From assembly GCA_001661245.1 (NCBI GenBank), contig KV454012.1, forward strand, positions 1,910,418 through 1,974,417: DNA of 64,000 bases. The letters are read 5' to 3'. Under the pieces are notes generated by a model. It worked only from the letters and a program-made list of their open reading frames with translations, made no database searches and had not been told where the DNA came from. The DNA is from Pachysolen tannophilus NRRL Y-2460 (lineage: Eukaryota). Position numbers and translations under genes: made by a program. Below, piece by piece: positions 12,329 to 64,000 of this stretch. Within the stretch, counting starts at the first letter, position 1. Each line of letters begins with the position of its first letter.

Positions 12329-15300
12329 ATGAAGAGATTGTTACCATTGCTGAAGCATATTTTAATTCATCATTTTAGATTTGAAATACTCAAATCATAT
12401 TATAATAGATTGGCTCAACAAATTTTAAAGAATCCGCGGTTATTCATATTATGGCCAATATTAATAATATTTATAATATCTTATCCGGCTATTTATTCTT
12501 TATATTCGGCTCCGTCATTAGCTCTTCATTCTTATAATTCGGATTTTAAAAGTATATTGGTGGATGAATCATCAATAATGCAATTTAATAATAAAGATTC
12601 CGATAATAGAGCATTGGCAGATTTGGAATTTAAACAATTATGGATTCAAACTAATTTTAACGATTATGATAATCAAGAAATTAATAATAACAATAATAAC
12701 AATAATAATAATATTAATAAGGAAAATCATCAATCGTATAATATCGATGATGATGATGAAGATAATAATAATAATAATAATTTAAATAAGGACATTCAAA
12801 TCAGCAAAAAAACTAATAATAAAAATAAAAAATTTAATGATGATGAAGATAATAGATCAAATGCATTACAAAAAACATTTCTCTTAAACGCATTAAGCTT
12901 ACAAAAGAGATTATTAGAAGGAATTCAAATTTCAGATAATGTTCATGATGGCCTGGCGGGACCCAGAGCTTTTGTACATTCACCACTCCAATTTTGGGGA
13001 AATAATGAAAAGATATTAGAAAATGATGAAAAAATATTGAAAACAATTCATGCAAATTCACCTAAAAAGTCCCCAACTGGTGTAACATTAGCACATTCAA
13101 GTTTATTTTCAGGAATAGTTAAAGTAAATGGTTTAGTCAAATCTGCAGATGCTTTAAAAATTTCTTTATTTTATAAACCTAATAAAGATGGAATTGATGC
13201 AGGTGATATTTGGGATCAAAATTTAAAATTATTAAAAGATGAACAATTACAAAATGAATTTGAAAATCTTAATTTTATAATATTTAACAAAGAAAAAAAT
13301 GAAACAAAATTTAAAAAAATTCATATGAGAATAATACCGATGAAGTTTGCTGATCAAATAATGCTTGCATTAACATATATATGCATAGTACTGTATTTCG
13401 TGATATCATTGGTAAATATTCATTCAGTTAAATCAAGAATAGGATTATTGATTGCATTTGTTGTTGAAGTGGCATTATCAATTTTTTCTGCCCTGACAAT
13501 AACTTCATATTTATTTAGAGGAATAGATTTTTTCCAAATGCCTTCACAAATTTTACCATTTGTTGTGATTGTGGTAGGCATTGAAAACATGTTTAGATTG
13601 CTCAATTCCATCTTATCAATTCCTGATGAAATGCCTTTGCAAATTAAATTATCAAGAGCATTAACAAACAGTGGGTTATCTTCAACTTTGATAGTAGCAG
13701 CAGATTTGTTGATACTAATATTTGTTATTCCATTTGTTGCTTCTTCAACTAGACAGTTTTGCTGTTTTGCTCTAATAGCTTTAGTAATTGATCATTTTTT
13801 ACATTTGACATATTTTACAGCAGTAGTTAGTGTTGATATGAGAAGATTAGAGTTAGAGAATTTATTACGCCGCTCAAATGCTCAAGGAGGCGGTTTAATT
13901 CCATCATCAGCTAACAGAGTGGATAATGGAAATAAGAAACGTGCTGTTCCTAAAAAGAATTTACTTTCAAATTCTCATTTGGATATATCCATTGATGTTC
14001 CTAGGAGAAGATTTTCTTTGAAGAATTTTTTTGGAGAAAGTTTCTTTAAGATTAAATTACCATTTTCAACAACAGTAGCTGGATCAGTATTTATGGTCGT
14101 TCTTCTATTAATTGTTAATTTACGTTGGATTGGAAGTAGTTCTCATATTAATGTATTTCATCAGGATAACGAAATATATAAATCGAGTTTACCTTCTTCG
14201 GAATATGATAAACAACAACCAGGAATTGTTTCAGAAAATCTATTATCATCTTCTGTCCATTTATCTGATCAGTTTAATATATCGGTTGTGGAAAATGGTA
14301 AATTTACGTTTTTCCTTGATCAAAAATATTTTGGTATGGAATTTGCCAAGTTATTGGAAATCCCAGATAAATACGATGTATACAAGCTAACAATATTAGT
14401 GGAAGAACCTTCGATTGCTGTTCATAAATCGGCTTTTGATGAATTTGAGTTTAATTTTTACAGAAACTATCATAATAACTATGGAAATAGATATGGTTTC
14501 CATAATAAATTGATCCCAATTGTGAATTTTGATTTACAAACCACCTACAAATTTGATGTTTATTATTTGTTTGAATTTTTAACTTCTTTAATTTTTACCC
14601 TGTCAGTTGCAAGTATGATTTTAAAGTTGTTTATTAAAACCAATGACTATGGAAGTATGATGACTTCAGACAATGTTCTTAGTGATGATACACTGTATAA
14701 GTTTAGTTTCAAGCCCCCATTTAACTGTAAAGAATTATGCAATGGTCATTTTTTGGATATTATTAATGTCACTACTTCTGCTTGTCCTTTTATAGTTTCA
14801 GTTGGAGTGGACCGAAAATTATTAGTTTGGTCACCCGTAACGAATCCACTTCCTCCACCTACAGAGTTACCTATTTCAAAGCAACTTTGGCCAATAACAA
14901 ACGTTGTTATGTCGGATTCTGGTAATTTCATTGCCGCATTTAACAAATATGGTACAATTAAATGTTGGTCAAGATTGTCAATGATTTGTATCTGGACTGT
15001 ACAGATTGATGATTTGAAAAAGTCTAAAATGTTGGAATCATTTTTCAGGAAAAGAACGGCTCCAGCATTTTCCAGCAGGAAGAAAGGAATTAAAAGTAGG
15101 TTGGCTAAAAAAACCCGTCCAAATGGTGGATCGAGTAACAACTTCAACTATAATCAAAGTGTTATAACTGAAGATGATGACAAGGTTAATTCTTCCGAGA
15201 GGTCTGAAGTGAGACATAGCAGGGCCACTTCAATTTCATCAATGACTCTCCCCAGATCAATGTCTATTGATTCTACTTTTGATCGCAGTAATAATTTGAA

Positions 15301-16675
15301 ACTGTTAAGTGAAAATACAGACTATGAATTCACTATGATTTTATCGAATGGATCTATGTATATAATTTCATGCGAAGACGGAAGTCTAAAAGAAGAAAAA
15401 ATAACCACATCACCATTAGTTAGTGCTGCAAAAATTATATCACCCAGAGTTAATGATAGATTGGTTTGTATTACGGACTCGGGTAATCTTATTGTCGCAG
15501 TAGTTATAAATAACAAATGGAAAATTAGAGAATTAGCAGTACAGAAGGAAAACTATAATTCGGGAAGAAGTTTATTGACACCTGCAGCATTATCTAGGAA
15601 GTCAAGTTTTTCATCTTTAGCACATCAAAATTTCCAAAAGAGTCCAGAATTACGATCGCAATTGAATTTTCAAAAAAAACATCCTTGGGACCATCATCTG
15701 GACGTTGACGATGATGAAGAGAATAGGAAAAAAACAGAATTTGAAAATTCGGAGATTGCTACAGTTTCGTTTGTTGGTATGATTGTTAGAACTAAAGGCA
15801 CTATTGCAGAATTAATTGATGTACAAACTGGGACATTAGTGAAAACTTTTAATATTGGACAATTTAAACGAGGTACTTTTAAAGTATTTCATTCACCTCC
15901 TATACATTGCAGATTTTGTGGTAGTGCTTCGATATCTTCTTTTTCTATTGTCTATATCGAATTGGATACAAATACTTTGATATTACATACATTTTCCATT
16001 GATAATAGAGCCAAAAACAATATTTGTTTACGTGTTGAGAGAGATCCTAGGGAAACGAGATGTCTTGGTTTTGAGAGGGTCACTGAGCATCAGCATTGGT
16101 TGGATAATGTTGAAGGTTGGTGTTTGACAGATCTGAACATGGTGATGGGTATTAGAAGAAAAGAAGGGGTAGAGATGAAAGACCGAGATATAATACATTC
16201 TTCTAGCTCTTATTCGACTTCAGTGCGGTCTTCTTTGATTAGCAACTTGAAACTTAAGAGGAATAGTGGTGGAAATGGTGTTGAAAGTCAAAAACTAGGA
16301 CAAAAACAGAATGGCGATTCCGGTTCTTCACTTAATAGTGATAAGATATGGGAAGGTTTTACCTTAGACGCATCTGGTAAGGTACTTTACAATCAAATTC
16401 CGAATGGTTCAGATAATGGCTTATTTATCAAGAGTATTGGCCCCGTTGCAAAGTTTGGTCATAAATCGATTGTTGTCACTTTTGGAAATGTCATGAAAAT
16501 TTTCTACAATGGAAATTCAAACTTATTTGATGTAGATGGTATTGGAAGTGACACCAGCGACAGTAATATTAACAGATTAGGTTTCATCAACAGAAGAAAG
16601 AGATTAAATGTTTATAATTATCAGTTGACACATTCGACAAATTATAATGTGACTGATGAGTTGCTGGAAGAATGA
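12329..16675 (+). CDS. SCAP: SREBP cleavage-activating protein (sterol-sensing domain + C-terminal WD40-like region), 1448 aa
   Basis: Luminal FVHSPLQFW; SSD with VKSRIGL, ILPFVVIVVGIENMFRL and YFTAVVSVDMRRLELENL (cf. mammalian VLSIDIRRMELADL); WD40-like GHFLDI...SVGVDRKLLVW; Cys-containing HCRFCG...ICLR...CLG segment typical of fungal SCAPs. Confidence 0.9.
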   Translation: MKRLLPLLKHILIHHFRFEILKSYYNRLAQQILKNPRLFILWPILIIFIISYPAIYSLYSAPSLALHSYNSDFKSILVDESSIMQFNNKDSDNRALADLEFKQLWIQTNFNDYDNQEINNNNNNNNNNINKENHQSYNIDDDDEDNNNNNNLNKDIQISKKTNNKNKKFNDDEDNRSNALQKTFLLNALSLQKRLLEGIQISDNVHDGLAGPRAFVHSPLQFWGNNEKILENDEKILKTIHANSPKKSPTGVTLAHSSLFSGIVKVNGLVKSADALKISLFYKPNKDGIDAGDIWDQNLKLLKDEQLQNEFENLNFIIFNKEKNETKFKKIHMRIIPMKFADQIMLALTYICIVLYFVISLVNIHSVKSRIGLLIAFVVEVALSIFSALTITSYLFRGIDFFQMPSQILPFVVIVVGIENMFRLLNSILSIPDEMPLQIKLSRALTNSGLSSTLIVAADLLILIFVIPFVASSTRQFCCFALIALVIDHFLHLTYFTAVVSVDMRRLELENLLRRSNAQGGGLIPSSANRVDNGNKKRAVPKKNLLSNSHLDISIDVPRRRFSLKNFFGESFFKIKLPFSTTVAGSVFMVVLLLIVNLRWIGSSSHINVFHQDNEIYKSSLPSSEYDKQQPGIVSENLLSSSVHLSDQFNISVVENGKFTFFLDQKYFGMEFAKLLEIPDKYDVYKLTILVEEPSIAVHKSAFDEFEFNFYRNYHNNYGNRYGFHNKLIPIVNFDLQTTYKFDVYYLFEFLTSLIFTLSVASMILKLFIKTNDYGSMMTSDNVLSDDTLYKFSFKPPFNCKELCNGHFLDIINVTTSACPFIVSVGVDRKLLVWSPVTNPLPPPTELPISKQLWPITNVVMSDSGNFIAAFNKYGTIKCWSRLSMICIWTVQIDDLKKSKMLESFFRKRTAPAFSSRKKGIKSRLAKKTRPNGGSSNNFNYNQSVITEDDDKVNSSERSEVRHSRATSISSMTLPRSMSIDSTFDRSNNLKLLSENTDYEFTMILSNGSMYIISCEDGSLKEEKITTSPLVSAAKIISPRVNDRLVCITDSGNLIVAVVINNKWKIRELAVQKENYNSGRSLLTPAALSRKSSFSSLAHQNFQKSPELRSQLNFQKKHPWDHHLDVDDDEENRKKTEFENSEIATVSFVGMIVRTKGTIAELIDVQTGTLVKTFNIGQFKRGTFKVFHSPPIHCRFCGSASISSFSIVYIELDTNTLILHTFSIDNRAKNNICLRVERDPRETRCLGFERVTEHQHWLDNVEGWCLTDLNMVMGIRRKEGVEMKDRDIIHSSSSYSTSVRSSLISNLKLKRNSGGNGVESQKLGQKQNGDSGSSLNSDKIWEGFTLDASGKVLYNQIPNGSDNGLFIKSIGPVAKFGHKSIVVTFGNVMKIFYNGNSNLFDVDGIGSDTSDSNINRLGFINRRKRLNVYNYQLTHSTNYNVTDELLEE

Positions 16676-19032: not shown

Positions 19033-22000
19033 TTAATTCGTAATATAAAAAAATTTCTTGACGACAAACCCGGTACTTACTATAGTAATTATTGTTATTG
19101 CATTGATAACTATTAGCACCATGCAACTAAAAAAACAACGAGGAGCAAAAATCTTCCATACCATTAAATGACGTCTAAAAAAGGTAGTCATTAAGGTACT
19201 TCCAAACAGCAAAAATAAATTGATCATTATGAAAAAGATTAAGTTTTCTGCAATTTTAGAAATTAAAGTAATTGGCTTAGATGAAGGAGATCGTTTGTAA
19301 ACAGATAGTAATCCAGCAGTCAAAGAACATATTATAAAACCTCCAAAAGTATTCAAAATAATAGGAATTTGATTAAATGGGAACATAATAGTTTCAGTTG
19401 CCAAAAATCCAATTTCCCATTGTATCGATTGTAAAGTTGCTTGATGTCCTGTTGAAAAAAAATTGGAATAAGCTAGTAAAGATAAAACCACAGTAATTAT
19501 GGAATGATTTTTTAGTTGCAAAATGTCCGCCAATTCTAGTAAAGATAATATTTGATTAACAAGTAAAAATAACGAAAGTTCTCCCAATGGTTTAGTGGCC
19601 ATTAAAACAGCAACCAAAAAGTTTACTATTAGCAAAAAATAGGACGACCCATAAACGTTACCGTACCCAACTATATAGGCCTCCTTACCTTTATTTGATA
19701 CCAGCGATTTTTCTTTTGAATTGTTATTATCATTAATTTCTAGTTTAATACATATAGGGCCAAATGACCAACTAATGTTTGCTGCAATCAACGATATTCC
19801 TAAAATTGTTCTTGAAATTGTAAGCTTAATCGATTTCAAAACTTCAAGATTAATGAAGCTCAAAGAAGAGAATTTGTCGTCATGCTCAATTAATTCTAAA
19901 GTCCAATAAACAGCAACACAAACCATAGAGTATTTCAATCCTTTTGAAATCCACATCTGCGCCGCTGTTTGATAAGACGAAGTAATATTATAAAACAGCT
20001 TCAAACATTCAGGTAGTAAGTAAGAGGTAATATACAATAGAAGCACAGACCACCAAGTGATTTCAAAATTAGATCTGCAATACGGATGCTGTTCTTCTCG
20101 ACACAAAGTAATCGTTGATGATAACCTTTGCAAAATAATAAACATCAAAGAGTGATAAATTCCCAATATTTTTGATAAGTTTGAGCTTGTATCATTAGCA
20201 CTGTATTTTTTTTGCAAGTTTCTTATTAAAGAGATGAAGCCAAAAGTGCTTAATAAAAATGAAACAATCTTATCTTCCCAAATGACAAATGAGTTTGAAG
20301 CAAAAATCAAACAGTGAATAAGTAAAAATGCAAAGCTTAAATACGACCAACCACCATCTAAAACATTCTCTCTAATTTGAGCTAAAAGCCATGGAATTGA
20401 ATATCTGTCCATTAGTGGAACCAAAATTCCAATGATGATACCAAATCCGACACCCAAAAGTGAGGACCACAGAAAATTGAGTGTCTCTGGCCTCAATACA
20501 AAAAATATTGAGTTGGTAATAGTTATACCTAAAAACATGGAAAACACACCAACGTTAAAAAACTGGTCATTTAACTGGCATATAACAATTGAAGGAATTA
20601 TTTTAGAGTAAGTTAACATTAAGCATAAAGAAACAAAAAGCAAAGAGACACCAATTGATATGCTCAATAAATCAAACCTTGCCCATAAATTTTTACATCT
20701 ATCCAATGATAAAGCTTGATAATTAAGAGCCGCGACATTGAAGTCAGTTTTATCATATGAATTTTTTTTATAAATTTCAAATAATTCTTGATATTTGTTG
20801 TTAATTTCCTCATCCCCAGCTAAAATTGAGGAAGAATTTCTATAATTTTGAATCTGCGTTACTGTCTCAAAATTTGCTCTTGCTAAATTTTCTATATTAT
20901 TATTAAAACATTCTTGAATTGGGATACCCAAATTATTATATGGAATTGGCAAACCTAATAGTAATGATAAAGTTGGCACCAAATCTATTTGATTAACAGA
21001 TCTATGATATTTCCCAGCATTTGAGATGTTGTAATAACTATCTTCCAATCTACCAAAAAAAGGTTTTTTGGAATACATGAATAAAGCAGCTTCAACTTCG
21101 TCTTTAGATTCGCCACCATGGTTCCCTGTTTGATCCATTCCATGATCACCCATAACCAATAACAAAGTTTCATTATCAATCTCGCTGATAACATTAGAAA
21201 TAAATTCATTCATTTGCTTTAATTTTGCAGCCATTGAAAAATGTTTTGGACCATACCTATGACCAGCATGGTCAACACCTAATAAATGAGCAATCATCAC
21301 GTCCCAATCTTTTTTATTATTATTTTCCAATAATGGGAAAATATGTTCTATTACACCATTGTCCACTGTATGCAAGTCCCATACGTTCAATGAGTCGTAT
21401 GGGAAAGATAATTTTTGATTGAAAAAAGGGTTAAATAAAGCTGTCCAAGTATCATCACCAATAAAAGCAACACTTTTATTATTATAATATAATTGACTAA
21501 TCCAATTATCTTCATCTATAACATCTCCATTAAAATTAGATCCAGCATCTATAAAAGTAGGTAAAGAACCTGTTGTTAAACCTTTTAATCTTTGTAAAGT
21601 TGTTGTTGGAGGATCAGCAATAAATTTCAACAACAAGGAATTCTCTTTATGTGATTGAGTTAAATCATACAAAACTGGGAGTTGATTATGATACATTTCT
21701 TTTGAACCTTCATTCGGTATAACAAAATCAAATCTTAAAGCATCTATTACTATCAATACAGCTTTATTGAAATGTGAAGGTTTAAAACAATTTTCATTGA
21801 CACAAGTGGAAGTGTTATCTAATACTGTCCTTGACAATAAAAATCCTTTCAAGAAAAAAGTTACACCTATTAATTGTAGAATGATGAATAATATTAAAAC
21901 CTTAACATAAGACCAATGAGAATTGTTCAATTTCTTTGCTCTTATATTCAACCTATCTCCAACCTGCTTCAAGATCCTTTGCCGTAACACACTATCCATT

Positions 22001-22218
22001 CGTTGAATGCCACCCTGCAGCAGCAGCACCAGCAGTACCAGCAGCGGTTCTTGTGTATTCAATGGGAGCTGGTATTGCAATGGAAGATTTTTGTTCAAAA
22101 GCTGTTCCGGTATACGTGGTATATCTGGTATGGCATCAAGCATATTGCTTGATGTCTTTAAATCAGAATTGCTTCCTAAAATGTCATCTGTCTGTTGCGA
22201 TTTATCTTCTTCAGACAT
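19033..22218 (-). CDS. GPI13: GPI ethanolamine-phosphate transferase 3 (PIG-O)
   Basis: VIDALRFDF, ADPPTTTLQRLKGLTTGSLPTFIDAGSNF, HLLGVDHAGHRYGP, MGDHGMD..GNHGG and RRHLMVWKIFAPR; multi-TM C-terminus. Confidence 0.97.
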   Translation of the reverse strand: MSEEDKSQQTDDILGSNSDLKTSSNMLDAIPDIPRIPEQLLNKNLPLQYQLPLNTQEPLLVLLVLLLQGGIQRMDSVLRQRILKQVGDRLNIRAKKLNNSHWSYVKVLILFIILQLIGVTFFLKGFLLSRTVLDNTSTCVNENCFKPSHFNKAVLIVIDALRFDFVIPNEGSKEMYHNQLPVLYDLTQSHKENSLLLKFIADPPTTTLQRLKGLTTGSLPTFIDAGSNFNGDVIDEDNWISQLYYNNKSVAFIGDDTWTALFNPFFNQKLSFPYDSLNVWDLHTVDNGVIEHIFPLLENNNKKDWDVMIAHLLGVDHAGHRYGPKHFSMAAKLKQMNEFISNVISEIDNETLLLVMGDHGMDQTGNHGGESKDEVEAALFMYSKKPFFGRLEDSYYNISNAGKYHRSVNQIDLVPTLSLLLGLPIPYNNLGIPIQECFNNNIENLARANFETVTQIQNYRNSSSILAGDEEINNKYQELFEIYKKNSYDKTDFNVAALNYQALSLDRCKNLWARFDLLSISIGVSLLFVSLCLMLTYSKIIPSIVICQLNDQFFNVGVFSMFLGITITNSIFFVLRPETLNFLWSSLLGVGFGIIIGILVPLMDRYSIPWLLAQIRENVLDGGWSYLSFAFLLIHCLIFASNSFVIWEDKIVSFLLSTFGFISLIRNLQKKYSANDTSSNLSKILGIYHSLMFIILQRLSSTITLCREEQHPYCRSNFEITWWSVLLLYITSYLLPECLKLFYNITSSYQTAAQMWISKGLKYSMVCVAVYWTLELIEHDDKFSSLSFINLEVLKSIKLTISRTILGISLIAANISWSFGPICIKLEINDNNNSKEKSLVSNKGKEAYIVGYGNVYGSSYFLLIVNFLVAVLMATKPLGELSLFLLVNQILSLLELADILQLKNHSIITVVLSLLAYSNFFSTGHQATLQSIQWEIGFLATETIMFPFNQIPIILNTFGGFIICSLTAGLLSVYKRSPSSKPITLISKIAENLIFFIMINLFLLFGSTLMTTFFRRHLMVWKIFAPRCFFSCMVLIVINAITIITIVSTGFVVKKFFYITN

Positions 22219-22517: not shown

Positions 22518-25190
22518 TTACCAATGTTTTACAGTAACGACGTAATCTTCAATGTTGAGTAAGAGTTTTTTAAAATCTTGCCTAGAGATATTCTCCTTCA
22601 GTAATATCATTTCAAGTGCGTTTCTACCATTAAAGTATTTGAGGAGTTTGTAAAATAGAGCAGTTACTTCGGGTGATTTATTTTGAACAATTTTACTGAT
22701 CCATCTTCTTTCTAAAGCAGTAGCTCTTGCTGGATCCAATAATATGGTATCTTCTTCTTCTCTTATTATTATTCTTTGGTTATTTTTGGTATTAGTTGAT
22801 TGTGTTTTTTTCTTTTGTTCATTAATGTTTGCAGAGTTATCAGTTATTAAATTATCAATATTTTTATCAGCGATATTATTCTTGTTATCTGCAATAGGAT
22901 TGTCCAAGATGCCATTTTTATTATTAATATTATCATTATTGTTGTTGTTGTTGCTATTATTATTACTATTGTTGACCTTATTTGTACCATTATTTTTATT
23001 TTTATCCATTGCTTTTTTAAAATTTTCAATTTCAATTTCTTCATCAACGGCAATCTTGATATTATTTGTGATTTTCAACCAAAGAAAAGTATGTAATTGA
23101 ATAACCCAACCACTCCTAATAAGCCACGCTAGAGCATCCAAATATAAATCTCTATGGTCTCTTGATGGAACTATTGAAGAATAAGGACGCGTTTTGGAGT
23201 GTTGATGTGATAATAATGATAAAAAAGCTGGTAAAGAAGGTAATGATGGAAATTCTTGTTTGAAATCATCCAGATCTTTATATAAACTTTTAATAGATGC
23301 CATTGGTGATATCACATAGACATTACGGGTATGTAATGGAGGTACAGCAATTGCCCGCCTCCAATAAACTAAATGATGACAAAATGATAATACTTGAGAT
23401 AATTCAAGTCCACTTATAGCTGATAATTTAACAAGATTTTCTGTAGGTTTAATTAATCTTATGAAATTGGCAATTATACTATCATTATCTGCTTGAATAT
23501 CTTTTATAATTGTTTCTGGATCATCTAAAAGTAATAATGCAAAAAATTTTACCATATCATTATCCGATTCGTTATCAATAGCGTCTTGTCTGTGCTCAAT
23601 ATTTGAATTTTTGAAAAAAGGATTGATAGAAGAAATATAAGACCCAGGCAAAACAGGTACAGTTAATGGTGGCAAAGATTGAAATTCATTACGAATTGGA
23701 ATCTGGAAAGATCTAATTTTCCCATTTATATCAACGTTTACAATTTCACTAGTTGAAATAGATTTAAAAGTTTGATAAATGATATTAGCCAAAGAAGATT
23801 TTTCAATAATTAATGACCAAAGTTCATTAATTGATAACTGATCTTGATTTTGTTCTTTTAACATCATGATCTTGTGAGCCTCTTCATATACGAAATTCGT
23901 CTTATCTTGTTCATATCTCAATACTAGTGATAATCTAGATGCCACAAAATGATACATTTCATCAACACGATGATTGTATTCAACAACAGGCGGATTCATC
24001 ACAAATACTATATGAAACATATTCATTGGACATTTTTCATCATCTTCCTTAATGTAGGTTTTTACTTCGTAATTATCGTTTGCTTCATCATTGCTATCTA
24101 TGTCCTCCCGGGTACTCATATTATTATCACTCTGTTGTTCTTTTCCTTCATCTTCTTCATTAGTCTCTATATGTTTTGTATCATCTTCAACATGATTATT
24201 AATATCATTATTTTCATCACCATTTCCCTTAATCTCCTTCAGTCGATCATTCTCACTTCCCAGAGATTTTCTACTATTTCCACTTTTCCTACTTCTCCTA
24301 CTGGAATATTTTTTCCTACTTTTAACTAACCTCCATCTACCATTATCATAAACATGAATTGGAAGACCTAAAAATGACATATCATCAATCGTTAATTCAA
24401 ATCTAGTGTTACATAATTTCTTTGGAGGTGTCACCATTTCACTTAAGAAATCTGTCTCAAATCCAAAAACTTTTTTAAGAGATCTTAACCCATTAATTGG
24501 TAAATTGGATCTATTATTCGTAGCATGAGAAGTAGTTCGTGAAACACGAGAAACATTATCAGCACCTTCAGATGTTGTAATTCCACCGCTATTCGATTTA
24601 GCAGAATTCAAACCTTGATGTATAGTCTTTTGGGCCTCACCAGAAGAAATATTATCATTAACAGCAGTAATATCACTACTATTATTGGTATTGGTATCAC
24701 TGTGATTCAGTAGAGTACTCTCCATATTCCTATTCATTATATTTTTAATCAATTTTGTCTTCTTACTTTCCTTTCTTTTCCTTTTCCTATCTTGTTCATC
24801 CAATATATCCAACAATGCTTTCCCACTTAAGTAGTTTTGATCATTATAATTTGAAGCTTGATGACTGTTAAAACTATTAGTTCTATGTGAGCCAGAAGTA
24901 AAATCCAATGATGATTGATTAGCAGAAGAAGACACAGTAGCATCGTCTTCACCATCATCCAGATCCAACCCACTATCTCCTTCTTCATAATCTTCGTCCT
25001 CCGAGGAAGACGATGATGATTCCACCGCTCCTGTGGTCTTCAAATAATCTTTTTGTTGAGCCAATGGAGTAGCTTTGTAACCGTATTCATTTGGCCTAGG
25101 AGGATAATGAAACAGTAACTGTGGCCCATCATGTGTTGATATTGTAAATAATATCCCTAGCAAACACGGATTAGGTAAATAGAGTGACAT
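22518..25190 (-). CDS. NPR3: SEACIT/GATOR1 subunit Npr3 (Rmd11)
   Basis: LPNPCLLGILFTISTHDGPQLLFHYPP, CNTRFELTIDDMSFLGLPIH, MFHIVFVMNPP, HLVYWRRAIAVPPL and DTILLDPARAT. Confidence 0.96.
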   Translation of the reverse strand: MSLYLPNPCLLGILFTISTHDGPQLLFHYPPRPNEYGYKATPLAQQKDYLKTTGAVESSSSSSEDEDYEEGDSGLDLDDGEDDATVSSSANQSSLDFTSGSHRTNSFNSHQASNYNDQNYLSGKALLDILDEQDRKRKRKESKKTKLIKNIMNRNMESTLLNHSDTNTNNSSDITAVNDNISSGEAQKTIHQGLNSAKSNSGGITTSEGADNVSRVSRTTSHATNNRSNLPINGLRSLKKVFGFETDFLSEMVTPPKKLCNTRFELTIDDMSFLGLPIHVYDNGRWRLVKSRKKYSSRRSRKSGNSRKSLGSENDRLKEIKGNGDENNDINNHVEDDTKHIETNEEDEGKEQQSDNNMSTREDIDSNDEANDNYEVKTYIKEDDEKCPMNMFHIVFVMNPPVVEYNHRVDEMYHFVASRLSLVLRYEQDKTNFVYEEAHKIMMLKEQNQDQLSINELWSLIIEKSSLANIIYQTFKSISTSEIVNVDINGKIRSFQIPIRNEFQSLPPLTVPVLPGSYISSINPFFKNSNIEHRQDAIDNESDNDMVKFFALLLLDDPETIIKDIQADNDSIIANFIRLIKPTENLVKLSAISGLELSQVLSFCHHLVYWRRAIAVPPLHTRNVYVISPMASIKSLYKDLDDFKQEFPSLPSLPAFLSLLSHQHSKTRPYSSIVPSRDHRDLYLDALAWLIRSGWVIQLHTFLWLKITNNIKIAVDEEIEIENFKKAMDKNKNNGTNKVNNSNNNSNNNNNNDNINNKNGILDNPIADNKNNIADKNIDNLITDNSANINEQKKKTQSTNTKNNQRIIIREEEDTILLDPARATALERRWISKIVQNKSPEVTALFYKLLKYFNGRNALEMILLKENISRQDFKKLLLNIEDYVVTVKHW

Positions 25191-25368: not shown

Positions 25369-26232
25369 ATGAATGATGGCCAGTCTTTAGCTAAGCTGTT
25401 GAGCTTGCAACAGTATACGGAGCTGGAGTTGCGACAGAAGCAAATAGAGAAAGAAGAGGAGCGGAAAAGAATATGCACAAAATGTCATAAAGATAGATCA
25501 TTAGAAATCAAGCAAGGTTCATTGATGTTGAAGTATTCTCAGTGTTCTCAGTGTAGGTCTCTGGAAAGAATACGGTATCACAAAAGACATGAGATTGGAA
25601 GTAAGGAATTAGATCTAGAGCTGAATTTTTTAAAGAAAATTCAAGGTGATTTTGAATTTTTTTTGAAATGTATTTCAACAAACTCTACTAATAATGTCTT
25701 GAAGTTGAAATTCACCAATAAGACAATAAATGAAATTATTGTTCCTCGTATTCATGGAGATGTACTTTTACATTATTTTCAACAAAAATTTGAAAAAAAA
25801 GATGATAATAACGAAAAAATTCGTAATGAATTTGATAAAGTCTTAATACAATCAGACATTAATTCTAAAAATCATGAAATAAATGGAAATTTATTCTTAT
25901 CAGATGTAAAAGAATCATTAAAAGTTCACTACATAAACAGAATCATTTTTTTATTGAAAAAAATTTGTCAATTTGAATTCAAATATCGTTCATCATCTTT
26001 GAAAAATTACAAGTATTATGTACAGTATCATTGTAGTAAAGATTTAAAATTTAAAAGAGATAAACTGATTGGTGATCAGAAGCGAAAAAAACATCATCAT
26101 CATCATCATCATGATAATGATTATTTAAATTGTTCTTCTCTGATATCCCTTAATTACGATCTAAGAAATGGGGATTTAAGTATCGAATTTAACCATTTGA
26201 ATCATGATAAAGTAGCTACCTATAAAGAATAA
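25369..26232 (+). CDS. Uncharacterised protein (287 aa) with an N-terminal CxxC..CxxC finger and a C-terminal C..C..HxxH (WRKY/GCM1/FAR1-like) module
   Basis: First in-frame ATG at 25369. Motifs CTKC...CSQCR and FEFKYRSS...YHCSKD...CSSLISLNYD...LSIEFNHLNH. Divergent from NPR3 with a 178-bp spacer. Confidence 0.7.
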   Translation: MNDGQSLAKLLSLQQYTELELRQKQIEKEEERKRICTKCHKDRSLEIKQGSLMLKYSQCSQCRSLERIRYHKRHEIGSKELDLELNFLKKIQGDFEFFLKCISTNSTNNVLKLKFTNKTINEIIVPRIHGDVLLHYFQQKFEKKDDNNEKIRNEFDKVLIQSDINSKNHEINGNLFLSDVKESLKVHYINRIIFLLKKICQFEFKYRSSSLKNYKYYVQYHCSKDLKFKRDKLIGDQKRKKHHHHHHHDNDYLNCSSLISLNYDLRNGDLSIEFNHLNHDKVATYKE

Positions 26233-30038: not shown

Positions 30039-30110
30039 GCCGTTATGGCCAAGTGGTAAGGCACCGCACTTGTAATGCGGCGATCCGCGGTTCAATCCCG
30101 CGTGACGGCA
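30039..30110 (+). tRNA. tRNA-Thr(UGU), intronless, 72 nt
   Basis: Acceptor stem GCCGTTA/TGACGGC; D arm GCC-AAGTGGTAA-GGC; anticodon arm CCGCA-CT TGT AA-TGCGG; T arm CGCGG-TTCAATC-CCGCG; T-runs downstream. Confidence 0.97.
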
Positions 30111-32650: not shown

Positions 32651-34152
32651 ATGGTTGAGTTGAATAGGAAAAGAGTAAGTTGATTAGTTAATTGTTATTA
32701 TTGTTGATTATTATTATTACTAACTGCAATTTTTAGAACAATGATCTGCTGATTTCAAGTCAGGAAAAACTCATAGTGAAGAAGCAACGATTTGATTCCA
32801 TTGTTAAAGAGGTTGCTGTGCTATTCAATCTTAATACTTCTGGTTCTGATATAAGGATAACATCTGATAAACAAGTTTTATTGCTTGGAAGGAGTAGTCA
32901 TTGTGACATTAAATTTGATAGTCCTGACGTTTCATCGAAACATTGTTCAATAGAGATAACACAAATATATACTGCATCTGTTATAAGATACAACTTGACA
33001 ATAACGGATTTAAGCTCTAACGGTACTTTTATTAACTCTGTGTTATTGGGGAGAGGAAATACTCACTTGTTGAAGTCGGGTGATGAGATAACGATTGCTC
33101 AGAGTGGTAACAAGTATATATTTAGATACCTTTCAGAGGTAAAGGGTAAGAATTCAAATTATATCATTGGAAAAAAATTAGGTTCTGGACATTATGCTGA
33201 TGTTAAAGAGGCCATAAATAGAGTTACAGGTGAAGTGGTGGCTATAAAAATATTTCATCCTAATAACAAAAATGATTACTTGAAGGAATTAAAACAGGAA
33301 TTACAAGTGTTGATGTCAATATCTCATCCGAATATTGTGAAATTCCATGATACTTTCACAGAATCTTTGGATAATTATACTCAAACTACATGTTTGGTAT
33401 TGGAAAAAGTAAATGGAGGAGAATTATTCCAAAGAATTGTGGATAAGCAAAAATTGAGGGAAAATGAAACTATTGCTTTATTTAAACAATTGTTACAAGG
33501 GCTAGGTTACTTACATTCCAGAAATATTATACACAGAGATTTAAAACCTGAAAATATTTTACTCGAGATAAAACCTAGAAGATCACTTTCAGAAACTCAG
33601 TCTGGTCCTTGGGATTCGAATGAACTAGATGTTCAAGTTAAAATTGCAGATTTTGGGTTGGCTAAATTTATTGGTGAGTTTAATTTTACAAACACTCTAT
33701 GTGGTACTCCTGCTTACGTTGCTCCAGAAGTTTTACAGAAAACACGAAAATATAATAAAGCAGTTGATTTATGGTCATTAGGTGTTTTGCTATATGTATG
33801 CCTTTGTGGATTTCCTCCATTTTCTGAAGAACTAGGTCCTCCTTCTATGAGACAGCAAATATTATCAGGTAAATTTGCATTTTTTTCACCTTATTGGGAT
33901 CCAATATCAGATTTTGCCCTAGATTTAATTACAAGATTATTAGTTGTTGATCCTACAAAGAGGTTAGATGTAAATCAAACACTGAATCACATATGGTTTA
34001 CTGAAAATAAAAATGAAAATAAAATTTCTGAAGCAACAAGGCAACTAAGTGTTACAAGATTGACGAAAAAAGATACAGTCCCACTCACTTTAAAGGAAAG
34101 AGTAGAAACTGCGATGGCCATTGATAATGTTGAAAAAGACAATAATAAATAA
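32651..34152 (+). CDS. DUN1: FHA-domain DNA-damage checkpoint kinase Dun1, join(32651..32674,32737..34152), 479 aa
   Basis: Exon 1 MVELNRKR; 62-nt intron GTAAGT..TACTAAC..TAG; FHA domain (GRSSHCD, SSKH, SSNGTFIN); kinase with LGSGHYA and the Dun1-specific insert GPWDSNELDVQVKIADFGLAKF. Confidence 0.95.
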
Positions 34153-44508: not shown

Positions 44509-45972
44509 TTAAGATGAAGAAACTGTTTCCTTTGGGTAATTGGAATCCATTTCATTGTGACTTTTATTTATAGACATTGGAATACTACCATTCTGAGGAA
44601 AAGTAGAAGACGATCCAGAAATTTGTGATTCTATATTTATCCCCGAATTGGACGAATGAATAAATTGTTGTTGATGTCTTTTCATCAGATCTTTTTCCTT
44701 TTTTATCTTTTGATTCCTTCCATGTAGTTTATAATGTCTCACCATGTTACTTCTTACCGAAAATTCTTTCCCACAACCATCCCATTTACATCTAAATGGT
44801 TTTTCTCCTGTATGAGAATATATATGAGTTTTCAAAGAACTTGGTCTCTTGAATTGTTTTTGACATGTGGGACAACGGTTTCTTGCTGCTGTTTCTGCTG
44901 ACATTCCATCTATTGTATTTCTTCTTTTTCTCTCTCTTGGCTGTTGTGCACTTATCATCGAAGGTAACTCACCTAACGATCCTGTATTAGGTATGAATGT
45001 GATGAAAGATGTATCTGGAAAATTAATCTCACGAAGAGGGGGTAAATTACTTGGTTGTGATGATGTATTATTATTAATATTAATACTATTAGCGGTAGAA
45101 TTAACAGCAGTAGCACCCGTAGATCCCAAAGTAGCTGTTGTTGTTGTTGGGTTTTGAAGACTTGAACCACTTCTTGCTGTTCCAGCTGTTGTTGGGATTT
45201 GTGGATATAGAAACGATCGATTTGCAGTATTAGCAGTAGAAAATGAATGTGAAGGGTACATCAATTGTGCCGAATTTTCATCAAAACTTCCATTTGTCGG
45301 TATACCAGAAGGTTGTGGAATAGCTTTTGAACTTCTTGGGGAAATATTACCAAAACTTTTCTTTAGCATTTGAGTATTATATACTGTTGGTAATACGACT
45401 TCTTCTTGTTCTGTGGGACTAAATTGTTGTGAAGAAGCAAGAGCTAATCCTTGAGGCTGTTGAACCACATCGTTACTTGGGGTTGCCCATTTCATATTCC
45501 ATTTATTAAATTGTTGCAGTTGCAGCAGCAGTTGCAGCAGTTGTTGTTGCAGTTGGAGTTGTTGTTGTTGTTGTTGTTGTTGTTGCAGCAGTTGCAGTTG
45601 CAGTTGTTGTTGTTGTTGACGGGGTAAAGTAGCGAAAGATCCTCTAAATTGAAGTTCCGAATTGTTTGGATAAAAGATTGTTGGTTGTTGTTGGAGCCCA
45701 GCTAATGCCTGATGGCCAAGGCCTGAATTATCTTGATAATTGCCAAAATTTTGGTTCCCCATCAGAGATGGGTGATAGTTCATCATTGTTGTCAACACTT
45801 GTTGATTATTGTTTGAATAGGAGGATGTCATTTGTTGTGATAATGGCGGTAAAGAATTTTGATTCAAAAAATTACTACTATTATTGCTGTTATTAGTATT
45901 ATTGTTTGTATTGTTATTATTGGTATTATTTGTTTGGTTGATATCTTGCTGAATTATAGGAATATATGACAT
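44509..45972 (-). CDS. C2H2 two-finger transcription factor (MtfA-like finger pair), Q/N-rich
   Basis: CPTCQKQFKRPSSLKTHIYSHTGEKPFRCKWDGCGKEFSVRSNMVRHYKLH; the upstream intergenic region is long (over 4 kb). Confidence 0.9.
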   Translation of the reverse strand: MSYIPIIQQDINQTNNTNNNNTNNNTNNSNNSSNFLNQNSLPPLSQQMTSSYSNNNQQVLTTMMNYHPSLMGNQNFGNYQDNSGLGHQALAGLQQQPTIFYPNNSELQFRGSFATLPRQQQQQLQLQLLQQQQQQQQQLQLQQQLLQLLLQLQQFNKWNMKWATPSNDVVQQPQGLALASSQQFSPTEQEEVVLPTVYNTQMLKKSFGNISPRSSKAIPQPSGIPTNGSFDENSAQLMYPSHSFSTANTANRSFLYPQIPTTAGTARSGSSLQNPTTTTATLGSTGATAVNSTANSININNNTSSQPSNLPPLREINFPDTSFITFIPNTGSLGELPSMISAQQPRERKRRNTIDGMSAETAARNRCPTCQKQFKRPSSLKTHIYSHTGEKPFRCKWDGCGKEFSVRSNMVRHYKLHGRNQKIKKEKDLMKRHQQQFIHSSNSGINIESQISGSSSTFPQNGSIPMSINKSHNEMDSNYPKETVSSS

Positions 45973-57783: not shown

Positions 57784-58905
<1,122 letters not shown>

Positions 58906-59489: not shown

Positions 59490-60740
59490 TTATTTGAAGA
59501 CTTTACCGTCAGCAATTTCTTTTGATTCACCATCAACAATGACTGGTTTATCCCAAGCCCACATATCGTTAACGAATTCTTTATCAGCTGGGTTAGAAGC
59601 ATCTAATTTTTCGTAAAAATAAGATTCCCAATCTGGAGCAACGTCAAAGGCTGGTTTAAAATCTTGGCCTCTAACTAAGAAGGCACCGATGATACCATTA
59701 TTGTTATTTTCACCGTAAACAACTAAACAACCAAACATGAATTTAGTTGAAGCAGATAATCTATTAAAGAAACCACCAACCAAGTTGTTTGACATGAAAG
59801 TTAAAGTTAATTCATCATTATATTTGTAACCAACTTTCCATAATGACCATTCTGATGGATCATAATGTTCCCAAAACCATGGTAAAGCTTTTGGTCTAGT
59901 ATCTTCATTAGAGTAAACTCTTTTCCATTCATCAATTGGTATTTTTGATTTACCAAGAGCTTCCAATGGGTGTTTAGCCTTCTTTGGTTCTTCAGAAGTT
60001 GGTTCATCAGCTTCTGGTTCTGGTTTCTTTTCAGCTTTCTTTTCAGCTTTTGCCTTTGGTTGAGCTTGAGTTTGAGTTTGTTTTTTCTCTTTCTTTGGTG
60101 GAACAAATTCAATTGGTGTATCTCTAAATTTGAAATTTTTATCAAATCTAGTGAATTGGAAAACTGGAGTTTGAGTAAGAGATTTAAACCATCTAGTAAT
60201 TGAAGGATATTGTTTTAAAAAATCTTTTGCCCAAATTGTTTCAAAAATTCTACCAACAACAGTACCAACAAAGATATCAGCTAAAGTTAATCTTTCACCA
60301 ACTAAATAAGTATAATTATATAATCTTTCTTCCAAAATATCAGCCAATTTTAAAGAACCACTTAAACCTTCATCAACTTGTTTTTTATTATAAGGAGTAG
60401 CACCTAATAATGGTAAAAAAGCTTTTGCAGCAGTTGGAATTAATTCAGAACTACCAAATGATAACCATTTAACAACTTGTGCATATTCTTTCAGATTTTT
60501 ACCAAATAATGGAGATTTTTCATTATCTAAAGAAACTAAATAAAGTAAAATTGCAATAACTTCAGTAAGTTTATAACCTTTTGGTCCAATAAAAGCTGGA
60601 ACTTTATTAAGTGGGAAATTTGATTGATATTCTGGATCTTCTTTTGAACTAATCTTAACATCCAATTTTAAATGCTTGATTAAAGCTTCAGCAGCAACAC
60701 AACGAATTTGTTCAGTGGCAAATAAAGTACCTTGAGACAT
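59490..60740 (-). CDS. CAM1: Translation elongation factor eEF1B-gamma (Cam1/Tef4), intronless
   Basis: MSQGTL, FPLNKVPAF, TYLVGERLTLAD (GST-like domain), KHPLEALG..DEWKRVYSNEDTR and AFDVAPDWESY. Confidence 0.97.
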   Translation of the reverse strand: MSQGTLFATEQIRCVAAEALIKHLKLDVKISSKEDPEYQSNFPLNKVPAFIGPKGYKLTEVIAILLYLVSLDNEKSPLFGKNLKEYAQVVKWLSFGSSELIPTAAKAFLPLLGATPYNKKQVDEGLSGSLKLADILEERLYNYTYLVGERLTLADIFVGTVVGRIFETIWAKDFLKQYPSITRWFKSLTQTPVFQFTRFDKNFKFRDTPIEFVPPKKEKKQTQTQAQPKAKAEKKAEKKPEPEADEPTSEEPKKAKHPLEALGKSKIPIDEWKRVYSNEDTRPKALPWFWEHYDPSEWSLWKVGYKYNDELTLTFMSNNLVGGFFNRLSASTKFMFGCLVVYGENNNNGIIGAFLVRGQDFKPAFDVAPDWESYFYEKLDASNPADKEFVNDMWAWDKPVIVDGESKEIADGKVFK

Positions 60741-62665: not shown

Positions 62666-64000
62666 ATGGCAACTTTATCTTCGCAAAAGGCGGATCCAAA
62701 GAATTGTACTAATAATAATAATAATAATAGTACAAGTACACCTATTGGTGAAAATGAAGTATTTCTGGAAAATTTTAATTCTAATCGTACAACAGATGAA
62801 TCATTGAAAGAAGAAGAATCAAGTACAATGGCAACAACTAAAAGAGTGAAAACAGATTTGAAGGAGGTTTCTAATAGTGAGGATGGAAATGGATTAAGTA
62901 TGAATAATATTACAGCGGCTGGTACCGCGGTTAGTAATGGTAATGGTAATGGTAATAGTAATGTTGGAGATAATTGTGGATCCAATTTCCATGGAAGTAG
63001 TAGGAAAAGACATAGACCATCTAGTCTTGATTTAAGAGATCATTCAAATTTACAACCAAATTCATTAAGGACAAAAGATGAATTAGGAAAAATTGCATTA
63101 AAGATTGTTTCTCCCGGTTTACCCCTGTTAAGTCCAACAATGCAAAATACAGTACTGATATCTAAAAATATAGAGTTGCAGCAAAAGCAGTTAATTGCAC
63201 TGAGGATGACCACACCAACTACAAGTACAGCAACTACAGCAACTACAGCAGCGGCGACGGCATTGGGGGCAGCGGCGCCAGCCGGTGCAACAGCGACGGG
63301 TGCAATGAATGCAAATGCAATGGGTACTGGAGGTCCATCGGCAGGAGGTCCACCAGCAGGATCTGTCAATTCATCTATTAACGCTATAAAAGCCAATGGC
63401 GGGAGTGCTGTGGTGGCGGCTAATTCAAATATTGAACCACAATTGGTCACAATTCCTCCTGCAGGTTTGAAATCAATAGGTCCTACCTCATCAATGTCTT
63501 CTTCTTCTTCAAATTCACAACATCATCAACATTCACAACAATCGACATCTGCAACAGGTCTAAGTGCAGATTTATCAAATCTTTCAATTCCAACTAAAAG
63601 ACTAAAGCGTGATAAAATCCCAACACCACTCAATGTTTCCGAATTGGTGAATGATGTTCCAAATCAACTGGTAAAATCTGCCCCTCCATTGAGATATTCC
63701 TATTATTCAAGACCTTTAGTATATCCATATCACAATCAGCAACCACAACAATTACCTTATCAACAACATACATCTCAACCATACCAATATCTGAGAACCG
63801 CAGTAGCTGGTGGCAGGAAAATCGTGAGACCTTATGGTCAATATCCACCATATCAACAGAAAGTTACTCCTTCACATCAAAACTTTTACAGATATCTGAC
63901 ATTACCATACTATACATCCACTTACCCTGGTGCAGCAGCGACTGCTGTCCAACCCCAACCTTTATACAACTCTCTCCCACCAGGACCGGCTCTTCATTTT
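62666..64000 (+). CDS. DIG1: Dig1-like MAPK-docking Ste12 regulator (runs off the window end)
   Basis: ATG at 62666; the frame stays open to 64000, so it is missing from the ORF track. Motifs RKRHRPSSLDL, LKIVSPGLP, KRLKRDKIPTPLNV (cf. ScDig1 KSLKRGRVPAPLNL) and KSAP. Divergent from CAM1 and near MNN9, as YPL049C/YPL048W/YPL050C are. Confidence 0.72.
   Translation, partial: MATLSSQKADPKNCTNNNNNNSTSTPIGENEVFLENFNSNRTTDESLKEEESSTMATTKRVKTDLKEVSNSEDGNGLSMNNITAAGTAVSNGNGNGNSNVGDNCGSNFHGSSRKRHRPSSLDLRDHSNLQPNSLRTKDELGKIALKIVSPGLPLLSPTMQNTVLISKNIELQQKQLIALRMTTPTTSTATTATTAAATALGAAAPAGATATGAMNANAMGTGGPSAGGPPAGSVNSSINAIKANGGSAVVAANSNIEPQLVTIPPAGLKSIGPTSSMSSSSSNSQHHQHSQQSTSATGLSADLSNLSIPTKRLKRDKIPTPLNVSELVNDVPNQLVKSAPPLRYSYYSRPLVYPYHNQQPQQLPYQQHTSQPYQYLRTAVAGGRKIVRPYGQYPPYQQKVTPSHQNFYRYLTLPYYTSTYPGAAATAVQPQPLYNSLPPGPALHF

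What the first reader, a model, noticed from the sequence alone, without database searches (positions are those of the whole stretch)
13391..63202. CTG codons behave as a small residue (probably Ala), not Leu: non-standard genetic code
Seen in sequence: (a) the GPI13 hydrophilic N-terminal tail (about 22018-22047, minus strand) has CCG CTG CTG GTA CTG CTG GTG CTG CTG CTG CAG, which is PLLVLLVLLLQ in the standard code and PAAVAAVAAAQ if CTG=Ala; (b) the C2H2 factor (about 45517-45604) has CAA-based poly-Q interleaved with CTG, giving typical QAQAQAAQ repeats; (c) Leu elsewhere is mostly TTA/TTG, and RPL11 has no CTG. From recalled homologues: SCAP TYICIV[CTG]YF (13391) aligns to human TYIILFAYIYF (Ala); amidohydrolase EE[CTG]GKL (39299) and DIG1 LIA[CTG]R (63200) also read better with a small residue. 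Established: CUG=Ala occurs in Pachysolen/Nakazawaea/Peterozyma and CUG=Ser in two other yeast clades. Inference: this is a CUG-Ala yeast and the supplied translations are wrong at CTG; Ser is not excluded. Counter-evidence: DUN1 QT[CTG]NHIW aligns to Leu in ScDun1 EALNHPW, and CAG>CTG point changes can also interrupt poly-Q.
Basis: partly seen in the sequence, partly recalled or inferred. Interest (0 to 1): 0.8.

Follow-up and report, generated by a model that had tools for sequence, protein, structure and literature searches.

The report
Known CUG-alanine yeast genetic code
This stretch comes from a budding yeast of the small group already known to read the codon CTG as alanine instead of leucine, and public records of its proteins already use that reading, so the finding is right but not new.

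Summary
In three orthologue alignments, CTG columns do not behave like leucine. Mean Leu frequency is 0.17 in 12 CTG columns, against 0.53 in 314 columns of the other five Leu codons (resampling P<1e-5; against the equally rare CTC+CTA, P=1e-4). CTG/CTA is 1.56, while NNG/NNA is 0.11-0.65 in 12 other codon boxes.

The columns do not name alanine. Mean Ala frequency is 0.08 and Ser 0.16, and Leu, Ala and Ser tie on BLOSUM62.

Alanine rests on other evidence:
- Public protein records of this locus carry Ala at 28 of 28 CTG codons in six genes, which means NCBI table 26.
- Three protein trees place the window, with one unnamed relative, as sister to the Kuraishia/Komagataella/Ogataea/Pichia clade. 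It falls outside the Candida CUG-Ser1 clade, Saccharomycopsis (Ser2) and Wickerhamomyces. This is the published position of the CUG-Ala clade.
- Published mass spectrometry for Pachysolen tannophilus found Ala at 97.2% of 907 CUG positions.

The tRNA(CAG) could not be examined: the window holds none and no genome is held. The GPI13 CTG tract lies upstream of the start of the public gene model, and the poly-Q tract is not diagnostic.

Verdict: real and correctly interpreted, but already known.

The parts
19033..22218 (-). GPI13 (GPI ethanolamine-phosphate transferase 3) ORF with 11 CTG codons. Four lie inside the public gene model: aa583, 741, 839 and 1004, with first bases at 20472, 19998, 19704 and 19209. 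Seven lie in the tract at aa59-67.
   Evidence: The public record P0001 has Ala at all four. Column 741 reads S68/A23/T9/G8 and column 1004 reads S56/T35/G24/L2/A1, out of 119 homologues.
22018..22047 (-). CTG-rich tract (7 CTG) upstream of Met74, where the public GPI13 model starts. It is unresolved whether this tract is translated.
   Evidence: The codon-usage score of the upstream codons 1-57 is 0.22, against 0.36+-0.18 for gene chunks and -0.41+-0.25 for non-ORF DNA.
22518..25190 (-). NPR3 (SEACIT/GATOR1 subunit) ORF with 7 CTG codons (aa26, 77, 161, 310, 317, 640, 864).
   Evidence: The public record P0121 has Ala at 7 of 7. Column 26 is V in 86 of 106 and column 864 reads L43/V26/I11.
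12329..16675 (+). SCAP-like sterol-sensing protein ORF with 10 CTG codons. Nine of them lie inside the public model, which starts at aa84.
   Evidence: The public record P0228 has Ala at 9 of 9. Column aa389 is A in 24 of 49, aa758 is L in 27, and aa1269 is L in 20. Column aa355 is V/I/L in fungi and Ala in chain 7lkf_A.
25369..26232 (+). Uncharacterised 287-aa ORF with 6 CTG codons.
   Evidence: The table-26 translation is held in the public library at 100% identity over 287 aa. Only 8 weak homologues were found.
59490..60740 (-). Elongation factor 1-gamma ORF with 1 CTG codon (aa83, 60492-60494).
   Evidence: The table-26 form is in the collection and the standard-code form is not. The column reads L, K and P in three solved chains.
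38567..40177 (+). Amidohydrolase ORF with 1 CTG codon (aa245, 39299-39301).
   Evidence: The table-26 form is in the collection and the standard-code form is not. No solved chain aligns over aa245.
33313..34152 (+). CHK2/Dun1-like kinase ORF with 1 CTG codon (aa224, 33982-33984) at a position that is Leu in CHK2.
57784..58899 (-). Mnn9/Anp1-family mannosyltransferase ORF with 2 CTG codons. The one at aa144 (58468-58470) aligns to Ala in S. cerevisiae Mnn9.
44509..45972 (-). C2H2 zinc-finger ORF with 13 CTG codons. Twelve are interleaved with Gln codons at 45517-45605, and one CTC sits in the same run.
62666..64000 (+).
   Evidence: No Pfam family matched. No homologue alignment was made.

Best explanation
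The window is nuclear DNA of a budding yeast of the CUG-Ala clade (Pachysolen, Nakazawaea, Peterozyma). I judge it most likely Pachysolen tannophilus or a very close relative. That call rests on about 30% G+C and on the codon usage; the GC figure for the species is recalled.

In this clade, a tRNA derived from tRNA-Ala by an anticodon change to CAG reads CUG. It keeps the alanine identity elements G3:U70 and A73. Alanyl-tRNA synthetase does not read the anticodon, so CUG is translated as alanine (NCBI table 26).

CTG is two base changes away from every GCN codon. New CTG codons therefore arise by non-synonymous single steps from Leu, Val, Met, Pro, Gln or Arg codons, at places that tolerate Ala. 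This would explain why they sit at poorly conserved columns and in Gln tracts and give no clear consensus.

Shown here: CTG is not an ordinary Leu codon, the lineage stands where the Ala clade stands, and public records translate CTG as Ala. Taken from the literature: the tRNA and the mass spectrometry. Inferred: the species, and the mutational origin of the CTG codons.
For: 1. Public protein records of this locus have Ala at 28 of 28 CTG codons: GPI13 4, NPR3 7, SCAP 9, ORF 25369-26232 6, EF1-gamma 1 and amidohydrolase 1. For the last two, the standard-code form is absent from the collection and the sources are listed as NCBI/UniRef.

2. Column test. All 20 control codons recover their own residue, at +0.37 to +2.71 bits per column. 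CTG recovers none. Mean Leu frequency is 0.167 against 0.528, and 3 of 12 CTG columns have Leu >=0.3 against 23 of 32 for CTC+CTA.

3. CTG/CTA is 1.56, against NNG/NNA of 0.11-0.65 in 12 other boxes.

4. Three trees. The window plus one unnamed relative (SH-aLRT 100) is sister to a monophyletic Leu2 clade (97, 96, 97). It lies outside Ser1 (100), Saccharomycopsis and Leu1. PMC5951914 (passages) places the Ala clade as the deep sister of Leu2 within Pichiaceae.

5. Literature. PMC4937558 (Results read) reports a Pachysolen tRNA(CAG) with G3:U70 and A73 and no long variable arm, and Ala at 97.2% of 907 fully supported CUG positions. A supplementary table of PMC5951914, as I read its row, gives 243 of 256 CUG sites as Ala.

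6. Supplementary Data 2 of PMC5951914. Genome-wide in P. tannophilus, only 554 of 20,511 CTG codons are scoreable at conserved sites. Of these, Ala is 30%, Leu 16%, Pro 10%, Gln 7% and Ser 4%. A weak Ala signal in a 64-kb sample is therefore expected.
Against: - The window's own columns do not favour Ala. Mean Ala frequency is 0.077, against 0.368 for GCN codons (P=4e-5).
- Ala is the commonest residue in only 1 of 12 columns. Leu is the commonest in 3 (SCAP aa758 and aa1269, NPR3 aa864) and Ser in 4.
- The kinase CTG aligns to Leu in CHK2.
- CTG codons are not enriched next to GCN codons (neighbour share 0.023 against 0.052 overall).
- The Ala in public records is an annotator's choice of table, not an experiment on this locus.
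- No tRNA(CAG) was seen. The window holds only tRNA-Thr(UGU) and no genome is held.
- The clade labels on the trees come from PMC5951914 for the genera it names and from my own knowledge for the rest.
Confidence: 0.9

Rival explanations
1. CUG is read as serine, as in the CUG-Ser1 (Candida/Debaryomyces) or CUG-Ser2 (Ascoidea/Saccharomycopsis) clades, through a tRNA-Ser with anticodon CAG.
For: Ser is the commonest residue in 4 of 12 CTG columns. Two of these are clear: GPI13 aa741 (S 68 of 119) and aa1004 (S 56, T 35, G 24). Mean Ser frequency is 0.159, twice that of Ala. The mean BLOSUM62 score of Ser equals that of Ala.
Against: The window lies outside the Ser1 clade in two trees (Ser1 monophyletic at SH-aLRT 100) and apart from Saccharomycopsis in the third. 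Ser frequency is far below that of true Ser codons (0.159 against 0.398, P=7e-4). Five columns are hydrophobic (V/I/L), where Ser scores -1.2 to -1.9. Public records use Ala (28 of 28). Only one Ser2 species was in a tree.
Confidence: 0.03
2. The code is standard (CUG = Leu). CTG is merely a rare Leu codon of an AT-rich genome that sits at variable positions and in CAG/CTG-type repeats.
For: The nearest named relatives (Kuraishia, Ogataea, Komagataella; 53-54% identity for GPI13) use CUG-Leu. Leu is the commonest residue in 3 of 12 columns and in CHK2 at the kinase site. The poly-Q run also holds a CTC. Fifteen of 86 CTG codons lie in Gln-rich context, as CAG>CTG changes would give.
Against: The equally rare Leu codons CTC (11 columns) and CTA (21) sit in Leu columns (mean 0.48 and 0.56), while CTG does not (0.167; P=1e-4). 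CTG/CTA of 1.56 is out of line with every other NNG/NNA ratio. The window is sister to the Leu2 clade, not inside it. Public records do not use Leu, and the standard-code forms of two proteins are absent from the collection.
Confidence: 0.02
3. CUG is read ambiguously, mostly as Ala with some Leu, as reported for Ser/Leu in Ascoidea asiatica. This would let CTG persist at Leu-conserved sites.
For: Four CTG codons sit at Leu-preferring positions: SCAP aa758 and aa1269, NPR3 aa864 and kinase aa224. Genome-wide in P. tannophilus, 16% of scoreable CTG sites face Leu.
Against: PMC4937558 reports Ala at 97.2% of 907 positions, with deviations no more frequent than at AUG, and a tRNA without the long variable arm that leucyl-tRNA synthetase needs. 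Leu-to-Ala replacement is a single base step (TTG or CTN to CTG), which explains these columns without ambiguity. Nothing in the window bears on decoding directly.
Confidence: 0.03

Closest known systems
Pachysolen tannophilus nuclear code (NCBI translation table 26; CUG-Ala clade: Pachysolen, Nakazawaea, Peterozyma)
   Same: CTG is not Leu-like in alignments. Public records of this locus read it as Ala. The lineage is sister to the Leu2 clade of Pichiaceae. CTG lies mostly at weakly conserved sites, as in the genome-wide table for P. tannophilus (554 of 20,511 scoreable, Ala 30%). The CTN/TTR codon proportions are similar: the window has CTT 113, CTC 27, CTA 55, CTG 86, TTA 520, TTG 262, and P. 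tannophilus ORFs have 42827, 9382, 19361, 20511, 169095, 90174.
   Different: Nothing found. The tRNA-Ala(CAG) and peptide evidence could not be examined for this window, and the species is inferred rather than read from a record.
CUG-Ser1 clade code (NCBI table 12; Candida albicans and relatives)
   Same: The codon reassigned is the same, CTG is likewise rare in highly expressed genes, and some CTG columns are Ser-rich.
   Different: The window lies outside that clade in two trees. Hydrophobic CTG columns fit Ser poorly. Public records use Ala.
CUG-Ser2 clade (Ascoidea, Saccharomycopsis), with competing tRNA-Ser(CAG) and tRNA-Leu(CAG)
   Same: It is an AT-rich budding yeast lineage with few CTG codons at conserved sites.
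   Different: Saccharomycopsis does not group with the window in the SCAP tree. PMC5951914 places Ser2 as sister to the Leu1 clade.

Membership tests
CUG-Ala yeast code (NCBI table 26) | A tRNA with anticodon CAG and alanine identity (G3:U70, A73, short variable arm) | not testable with these tools
   The window holds only tRNA-Thr(UGU) at 30038-30111. No whole genome is held. The feature is described for Pachysolen in PMC4937558.
CUG-Ala yeast code (NCBI table 26) | CUG-encoded positions are alanine in the proteome (mass spectrometry) | not testable with these tools
   Literature only. PMC4937558 reports 97.2% of 907 positions. A supplementary table of PMC5951914 gives 243 of 256. The supplements of PMC4937558 could not be read, so no peptide from this locus was checked.
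CUG-Ala yeast code (NCBI table 26) | CTG does not occupy Leu columns in orthologue alignments | tested here: met
   Mean Leu frequency is 0.167 in 12 columns, against 0.528 in 314 (P<1e-5). Against CTC+CTA, P=1e-4.
CUG-Ala yeast code (NCBI table 26) | Ala is the leading residue at conserved CTG columns | tested here: inconclusive
   Only 1 of 12 columns passes an 80% conservation filter, and it is Val. Ala leads in 1 of 12 columns and in 2 pairwise matches to solved chains: Mnn9 aa144 and SCAP aa355. The sample is too small, since the genome-wide Ala share is only 30%.
CUG-Ala yeast code (NCBI table 26) | Phylogenetic position in the Ala clade: sister to the Leu2 clade within Pichiaceae | tested here: met
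   Three single-protein trees agree. No named Ala-clade sequence was available as a positive marker. The one close relative is unnamed (P0002, P0122, P0229).
CUG-Ala yeast code (NCBI table 26) | Deposited annotation uses CTG=Ala | tested here: met
   28 of 28 CTG codons in six public protein records. For three further ORFs, neither form was found.
CUG-Ser1 clade (NCBI table 12) | Membership of the Candida/Debaryomyces/Babjeviella clade | tested here: not met
   Ser1 taxa form a clade (SH-aLRT 100) that excludes the window in the GPI13 and NPR3 trees. Babjeviella is unresolved at the base in the NPR3 tree.
Standard code (CUG-Leu, Leu2 clade of Pichiaceae) | CTG columns resemble those of the other Leu codons | tested here: not met
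   In addition, CTG/CTA is 1.56 against 0.11-0.65 for other boxes.

The most novel reading that the evidence does not exclude
Some CTG codons of this Ala-clade yeast sit at Leu-preferring positions: kinase aa224, SCAP aa758 and aa1269, and NPR3 aa864. A minority of CUG decoding might still insert Leu, perhaps only under some conditions. That would make part of the proteome statistical, as reported for Ascoidea. Nothing in the window excludes this, but published mass spectrometry for Pachysolen argues against it.
Probability: 0.03. Interest if true: 0.55.

Novelty: already known. Interest (0 to 1): 0.1.

Why it matters
Any translation of this window with the standard code puts Leu where the cell puts Ala at 86 codons in the 20 long ORFs counted. 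Annotation, structure prediction and heterologous expression of these genes therefore need table 26.

The reassignment was published in 2016, has its own NCBI table, and is already applied in the public records of these proteins. Nothing new follows for the biology of the genetic code.

The practical lesson for the scan is that a 64-kb window can show that CTG is not Leu, but cannot by itself name the new residue.

Tried and rejected
- Whole-genome search for the tRNA(CAG): no genome is held.
- ARAGORN with introns at a relaxed threshold gave ten further hits with implausible introns of 38-2638 bases. None had anticodon CAG, and I discounted them.
- Sequencing runs: no RNA holder is listed and all names are coded.
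- Earlier findings of the scan: nothing for this genome or for these words.
- Neighbour test (is CTG flanked by Ala codons?): no enrichment. CTG is instead enriched next to Gln codons and next to itself.
- Search for 'L' in the closest unnamed relative at Ala-conserved columns, as a sign of CTG=Ala there: 3 such columns, against 0-1 in four Leu2 species. This is too few to use.
- Solved-structure searches gave no aligned residue for amidohydrolase aa245 and no hit for the PX-domain protein.
- The one exhaustive protein search went to ORF 25369-26232. It returned only 8 weak homologues, whose columns at aa65, aa233 and aa258 are basic or variable.
- A literature search for a genome GC figure gave nothing usable.
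- The PNAS 2016 paper by Riley et al. that also reported CUG-Ala is not in the library, so I cite it from recall only.
- The supplements of PMC4937558 could not be read, so no published peptide could be matched to a CTG site of this window.
Full report
**What is in the window.** The window has about 30% G+C and three N-masked stretches. It carries typical budding-yeast genes (Pfam):
- a proteasome subunit
- RPL11
- two protein kinases
- a SCAP-like sterol-sensing protein
- GPI13
- NPR3
- an ammonium transporter
- a PX-domain protein
- an MFS transporter
- an amidohydrolase
- C2H2 and CCCH zinc-finger proteins
- NOG1
- an Mnn9/Anp1-family protein
- EF1-gamma

In the first set of 20 long ORFs, CTG occurs 79 times in 10,812 codons. 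In a second set of 20 ORFs it occurs 86 times; that set leaves out the N-masked ORF and adds the 3'-open ORF at 62666. The RPL11, ammonium-transporter, MFS and NOG1 ORFs have no CTG.

**Checking the observation.**
- The GPI13 tract is in frame with the ATG at 22218. However, the public gene model of this protein (P0001, 988 aa) starts at Met74, downstream of the tract, and 116-118 of 119 homologues have gaps there. A codon-usage score for the 57 codons before the tract is gene-like: 0.22, against 0.36+-0.18 for gene chunks and -0.41+-0.25 for non-ORF DNA. Whether the tract is translated is therefore open, and it cannot carry the argument.
- The poly-Q tract of the C2H2 protein does interleave CTG with CAA/CAG, but it also contains one CTC, which is Leu in every known code.
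- CTG in general is concentrated in Gln-rich context: 15 of 86 codons, against 10 of 977 for the other Leu codons and 3 of 575 for GCN. This fits CAG>CTG changes and says nothing about the residue encoded.

**Orthologue columns.** I collected homologues of GPI13 (119 used), NPR3 (106) and SCAP (49), and aligned them with the standard-code translation of the window. I then tabulated every codon whose column had under 30% gaps.
- All 20 control codons recovered their own residue as the best log-odds, at +0.37 to +2.71 bits per column. This includes the five other Leu codons, with mean Leu frequency 0.48-0.56.
- The 12 CTG columns gave no positive score for any residue. Mean Leu frequency was 0.167, Ala 0.077 and Ser 0.159.
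- By resampling, 12 columns drawn from true Leu, Ala or Ser codons were as low in 0, 4 and 74 of 100,000 draws respectively.
- Against the equally rare CTC+CTA (32 columns), the Mann-Whitney P is 1e-4.
- The commonest residue per column is Ser in 4, Leu in 3, Val in 2, and Ala, Lys and Asp in 1 each. Mean BLOSUM62 scores tie: L -0.02, A -0.12, S -0.13, and the bootstrap intervals of A-S and A-L both span zero.
- Matches to solved chains add five data points: Leu in CHK2 at kinase aa224; Ala in S. cerevisiae Mnn9 at aa144; L, K and P at EF1-gamma aa83; and Ala at SCAP aa355 and Val at aa389 in chain 7lkf_A.

So the window shows that CTG is not an ordinary Leu codon, but it does not show which residue it encodes.

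**Composition.** CTG/CTA is 1.56. The NNG/NNA ratio in 12 other boxes is 0.11-0.65. CTG therefore does not follow the synonymous bias of its box.

**What the public records say.** The protein collections hold the window's own proteins.
- Compared with my standard-code translation, they differ only at CTG codons, and there they carry Ala: GPI13 4 of 4, NPR3 7 of 7, SCAP 9 of 9.
- The table-26 translation of ORF 25369-26232 (6 CTG) is found at 100% identity over its whole length.
- For EF1-gamma and the amidohydrolase, the table-26 form is in the collection (sources NCBI, UniRef) and the standard-code form is not.
- That makes 28 of 28 codons in six records.
- For Mnn9, the C2H2 protein and ORF 17445-18785, neither form is present, presumably because the gene models differ.

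This shows that the depositors already applied CTG=Ala. It is an annotation choice, not an experiment on this locus.

**Phylogenetic place.** Three maximum-likelihood trees were built: NPR3 with 29 rows, GPI13 with 21 and SCAP with 15. I selected the named rows and left out the unnamed hits except the closest one.
- All three give the same picture. The window plus one unnamed relative (SH-aLRT 100) is sister to a monophyletic group of Kuraishia, Komagataella, Ogataea, Pichia and allies (97, 96, 97).
- The joint clade has support 91, 97 and 96.
- The Candida/Scheffersomyces/Metschnikowia group (100) excludes the window, as do Saccharomycopsis and Wickerhamomyces/Saccharomycetaceae.
- PMC5951914 (passages) defines exactly this. 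The Ala clade (Pachysolen, Nakazawaea, Peterozyma) and the Leu2 clade (Citeromyces, Kuraishia, Komagataella, Ogataea, Pichia) form a deep split within Pichiaceae, and Ser2 is sister to Leu1.
- The clade labels for species not named in that text are my own.

**Literature.**
- PMC4937558 (outline, Results and passages) reports the Pachysolen tRNA(CAG) as an anticodon-mutated tRNA-Ala with G3:U70 and A73 and no extended variable loop. It counts 16,824 CUG codons in 5288 predicted proteins, and finds Ala at 97.2% of 907 fully supported CUG positions.
- A supplementary table of PMC5951914 gives, as I read its row, 243 of 256 CUG sites as Ala for P. tannophilus.
- Supplementary Data 2 of the same paper gives the conserved-site tabulation. 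Only 554 of 20,511 CTG codons are scoreable, against 2216 of 19,361 CTA. Among the 554, Ala is 167.5 (30%), Leu 87.3, Pro 53.1, Gln 40.1, Lys 30.6 and Ser 23.8.
- This explains why a 64-kb sample with 12 alignable columns shows no Ala consensus. It also matches the mix of Leu-type, Gln-associated and small-residue contexts seen here.

**Mechanism.** The literature gives the following account. The ancestral tRNA-Leu(CAG) was lost and CUG usage fell. A duplicated tRNA-Ala gene then acquired the anticodon CAG. Because alanyl-tRNA synthetase recognises the acceptor stem and not the anticodon, CUG became Ala.

My inference adds one point. CTG is two substitutions away from any GCN codon. Every new CTG is therefore a non-synonymous step from TTG or CTN (Leu), GTG (Val), ATG (Met), CCG (Pro), CAG (Gln) or CGG (Arg), fixed where Ala is tolerated. 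This predicts the pattern observed.

**What could not be done.** The window has only tRNA-Thr(UGU), no genome is held, and no RNA run is listed. No peptide from this locus could be checked, because the supplements of PMC4937558 are not held.

**Verdict.** The finding is real and its interpretation is correct. The code is NCBI table 26, it has been known since 2016, and it is already applied to these genes. The novelty rating is 'already known' and interest is low.

Noticed in passing
window 21999-22218 (-): The GPI13 ORF extends 73 codons upstream of the start of the public gene model (Met74). Codons 1-57 have gene-like codon usage in this frame only. The upstream ATG has A at -3, while the Met74 ATG has C at -3. 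The public model may be truncated at its 5' end, or the extension may be an upstream ORF.
   Followed up: partly
window 2203-2697, 49971-50019, 56402-56791: Three runs of N (495, 49 and 390 bases). The first lies inside an ORF at 2189-2836, which was therefore left out of the later counts.
   Followed up: no
window 61203-61291 (-): A C/D-box snoRNA match to Rfam snoR38 (50.9 bits, gathering score 45) between the EF1-gamma gene and the ORF at 62666.
   Followed up: no
window 30038-30111 (+): tRNA-Thr with anticodon TGT is the only tRNA gene in the window (ARAGORN, and Rfam at 67.9 bits).
   Followed up: yes
window 33313-34152 (+) and 3354-3854 (+): The CHK2/Dun1-like kinase ORF begins at position 55 of the Pfam kinase profile, and the RPL11 ORF at position 3 of Ribosomal_L5. 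Both probably have an upstream exon or a start outside the ATG-to-stop ORF listed.
   Followed up: no
all long ORFs of the window: CTG codons cluster in Gln-rich tracts: 15 of 86 have at least 3 Gln codons among their 6 neighbours, against 10 of 977 other Leu codons and 3 of 575 GCN codons. In this yeast, such tracts would therefore read as Gln/Ala-rich, with the Ala supplied almost only by CTG.
   Followed up: partly
proteins P0002, P0122, P0229 (unnamed, from assembled public reads): One unnamed yeast is the closest relative in all three searches (62%, 52% and 47% identity) and groups with the window at full support. It is probably another member of the Ala clade whose proteins were predicted with the standard code.
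   Followed up: partly
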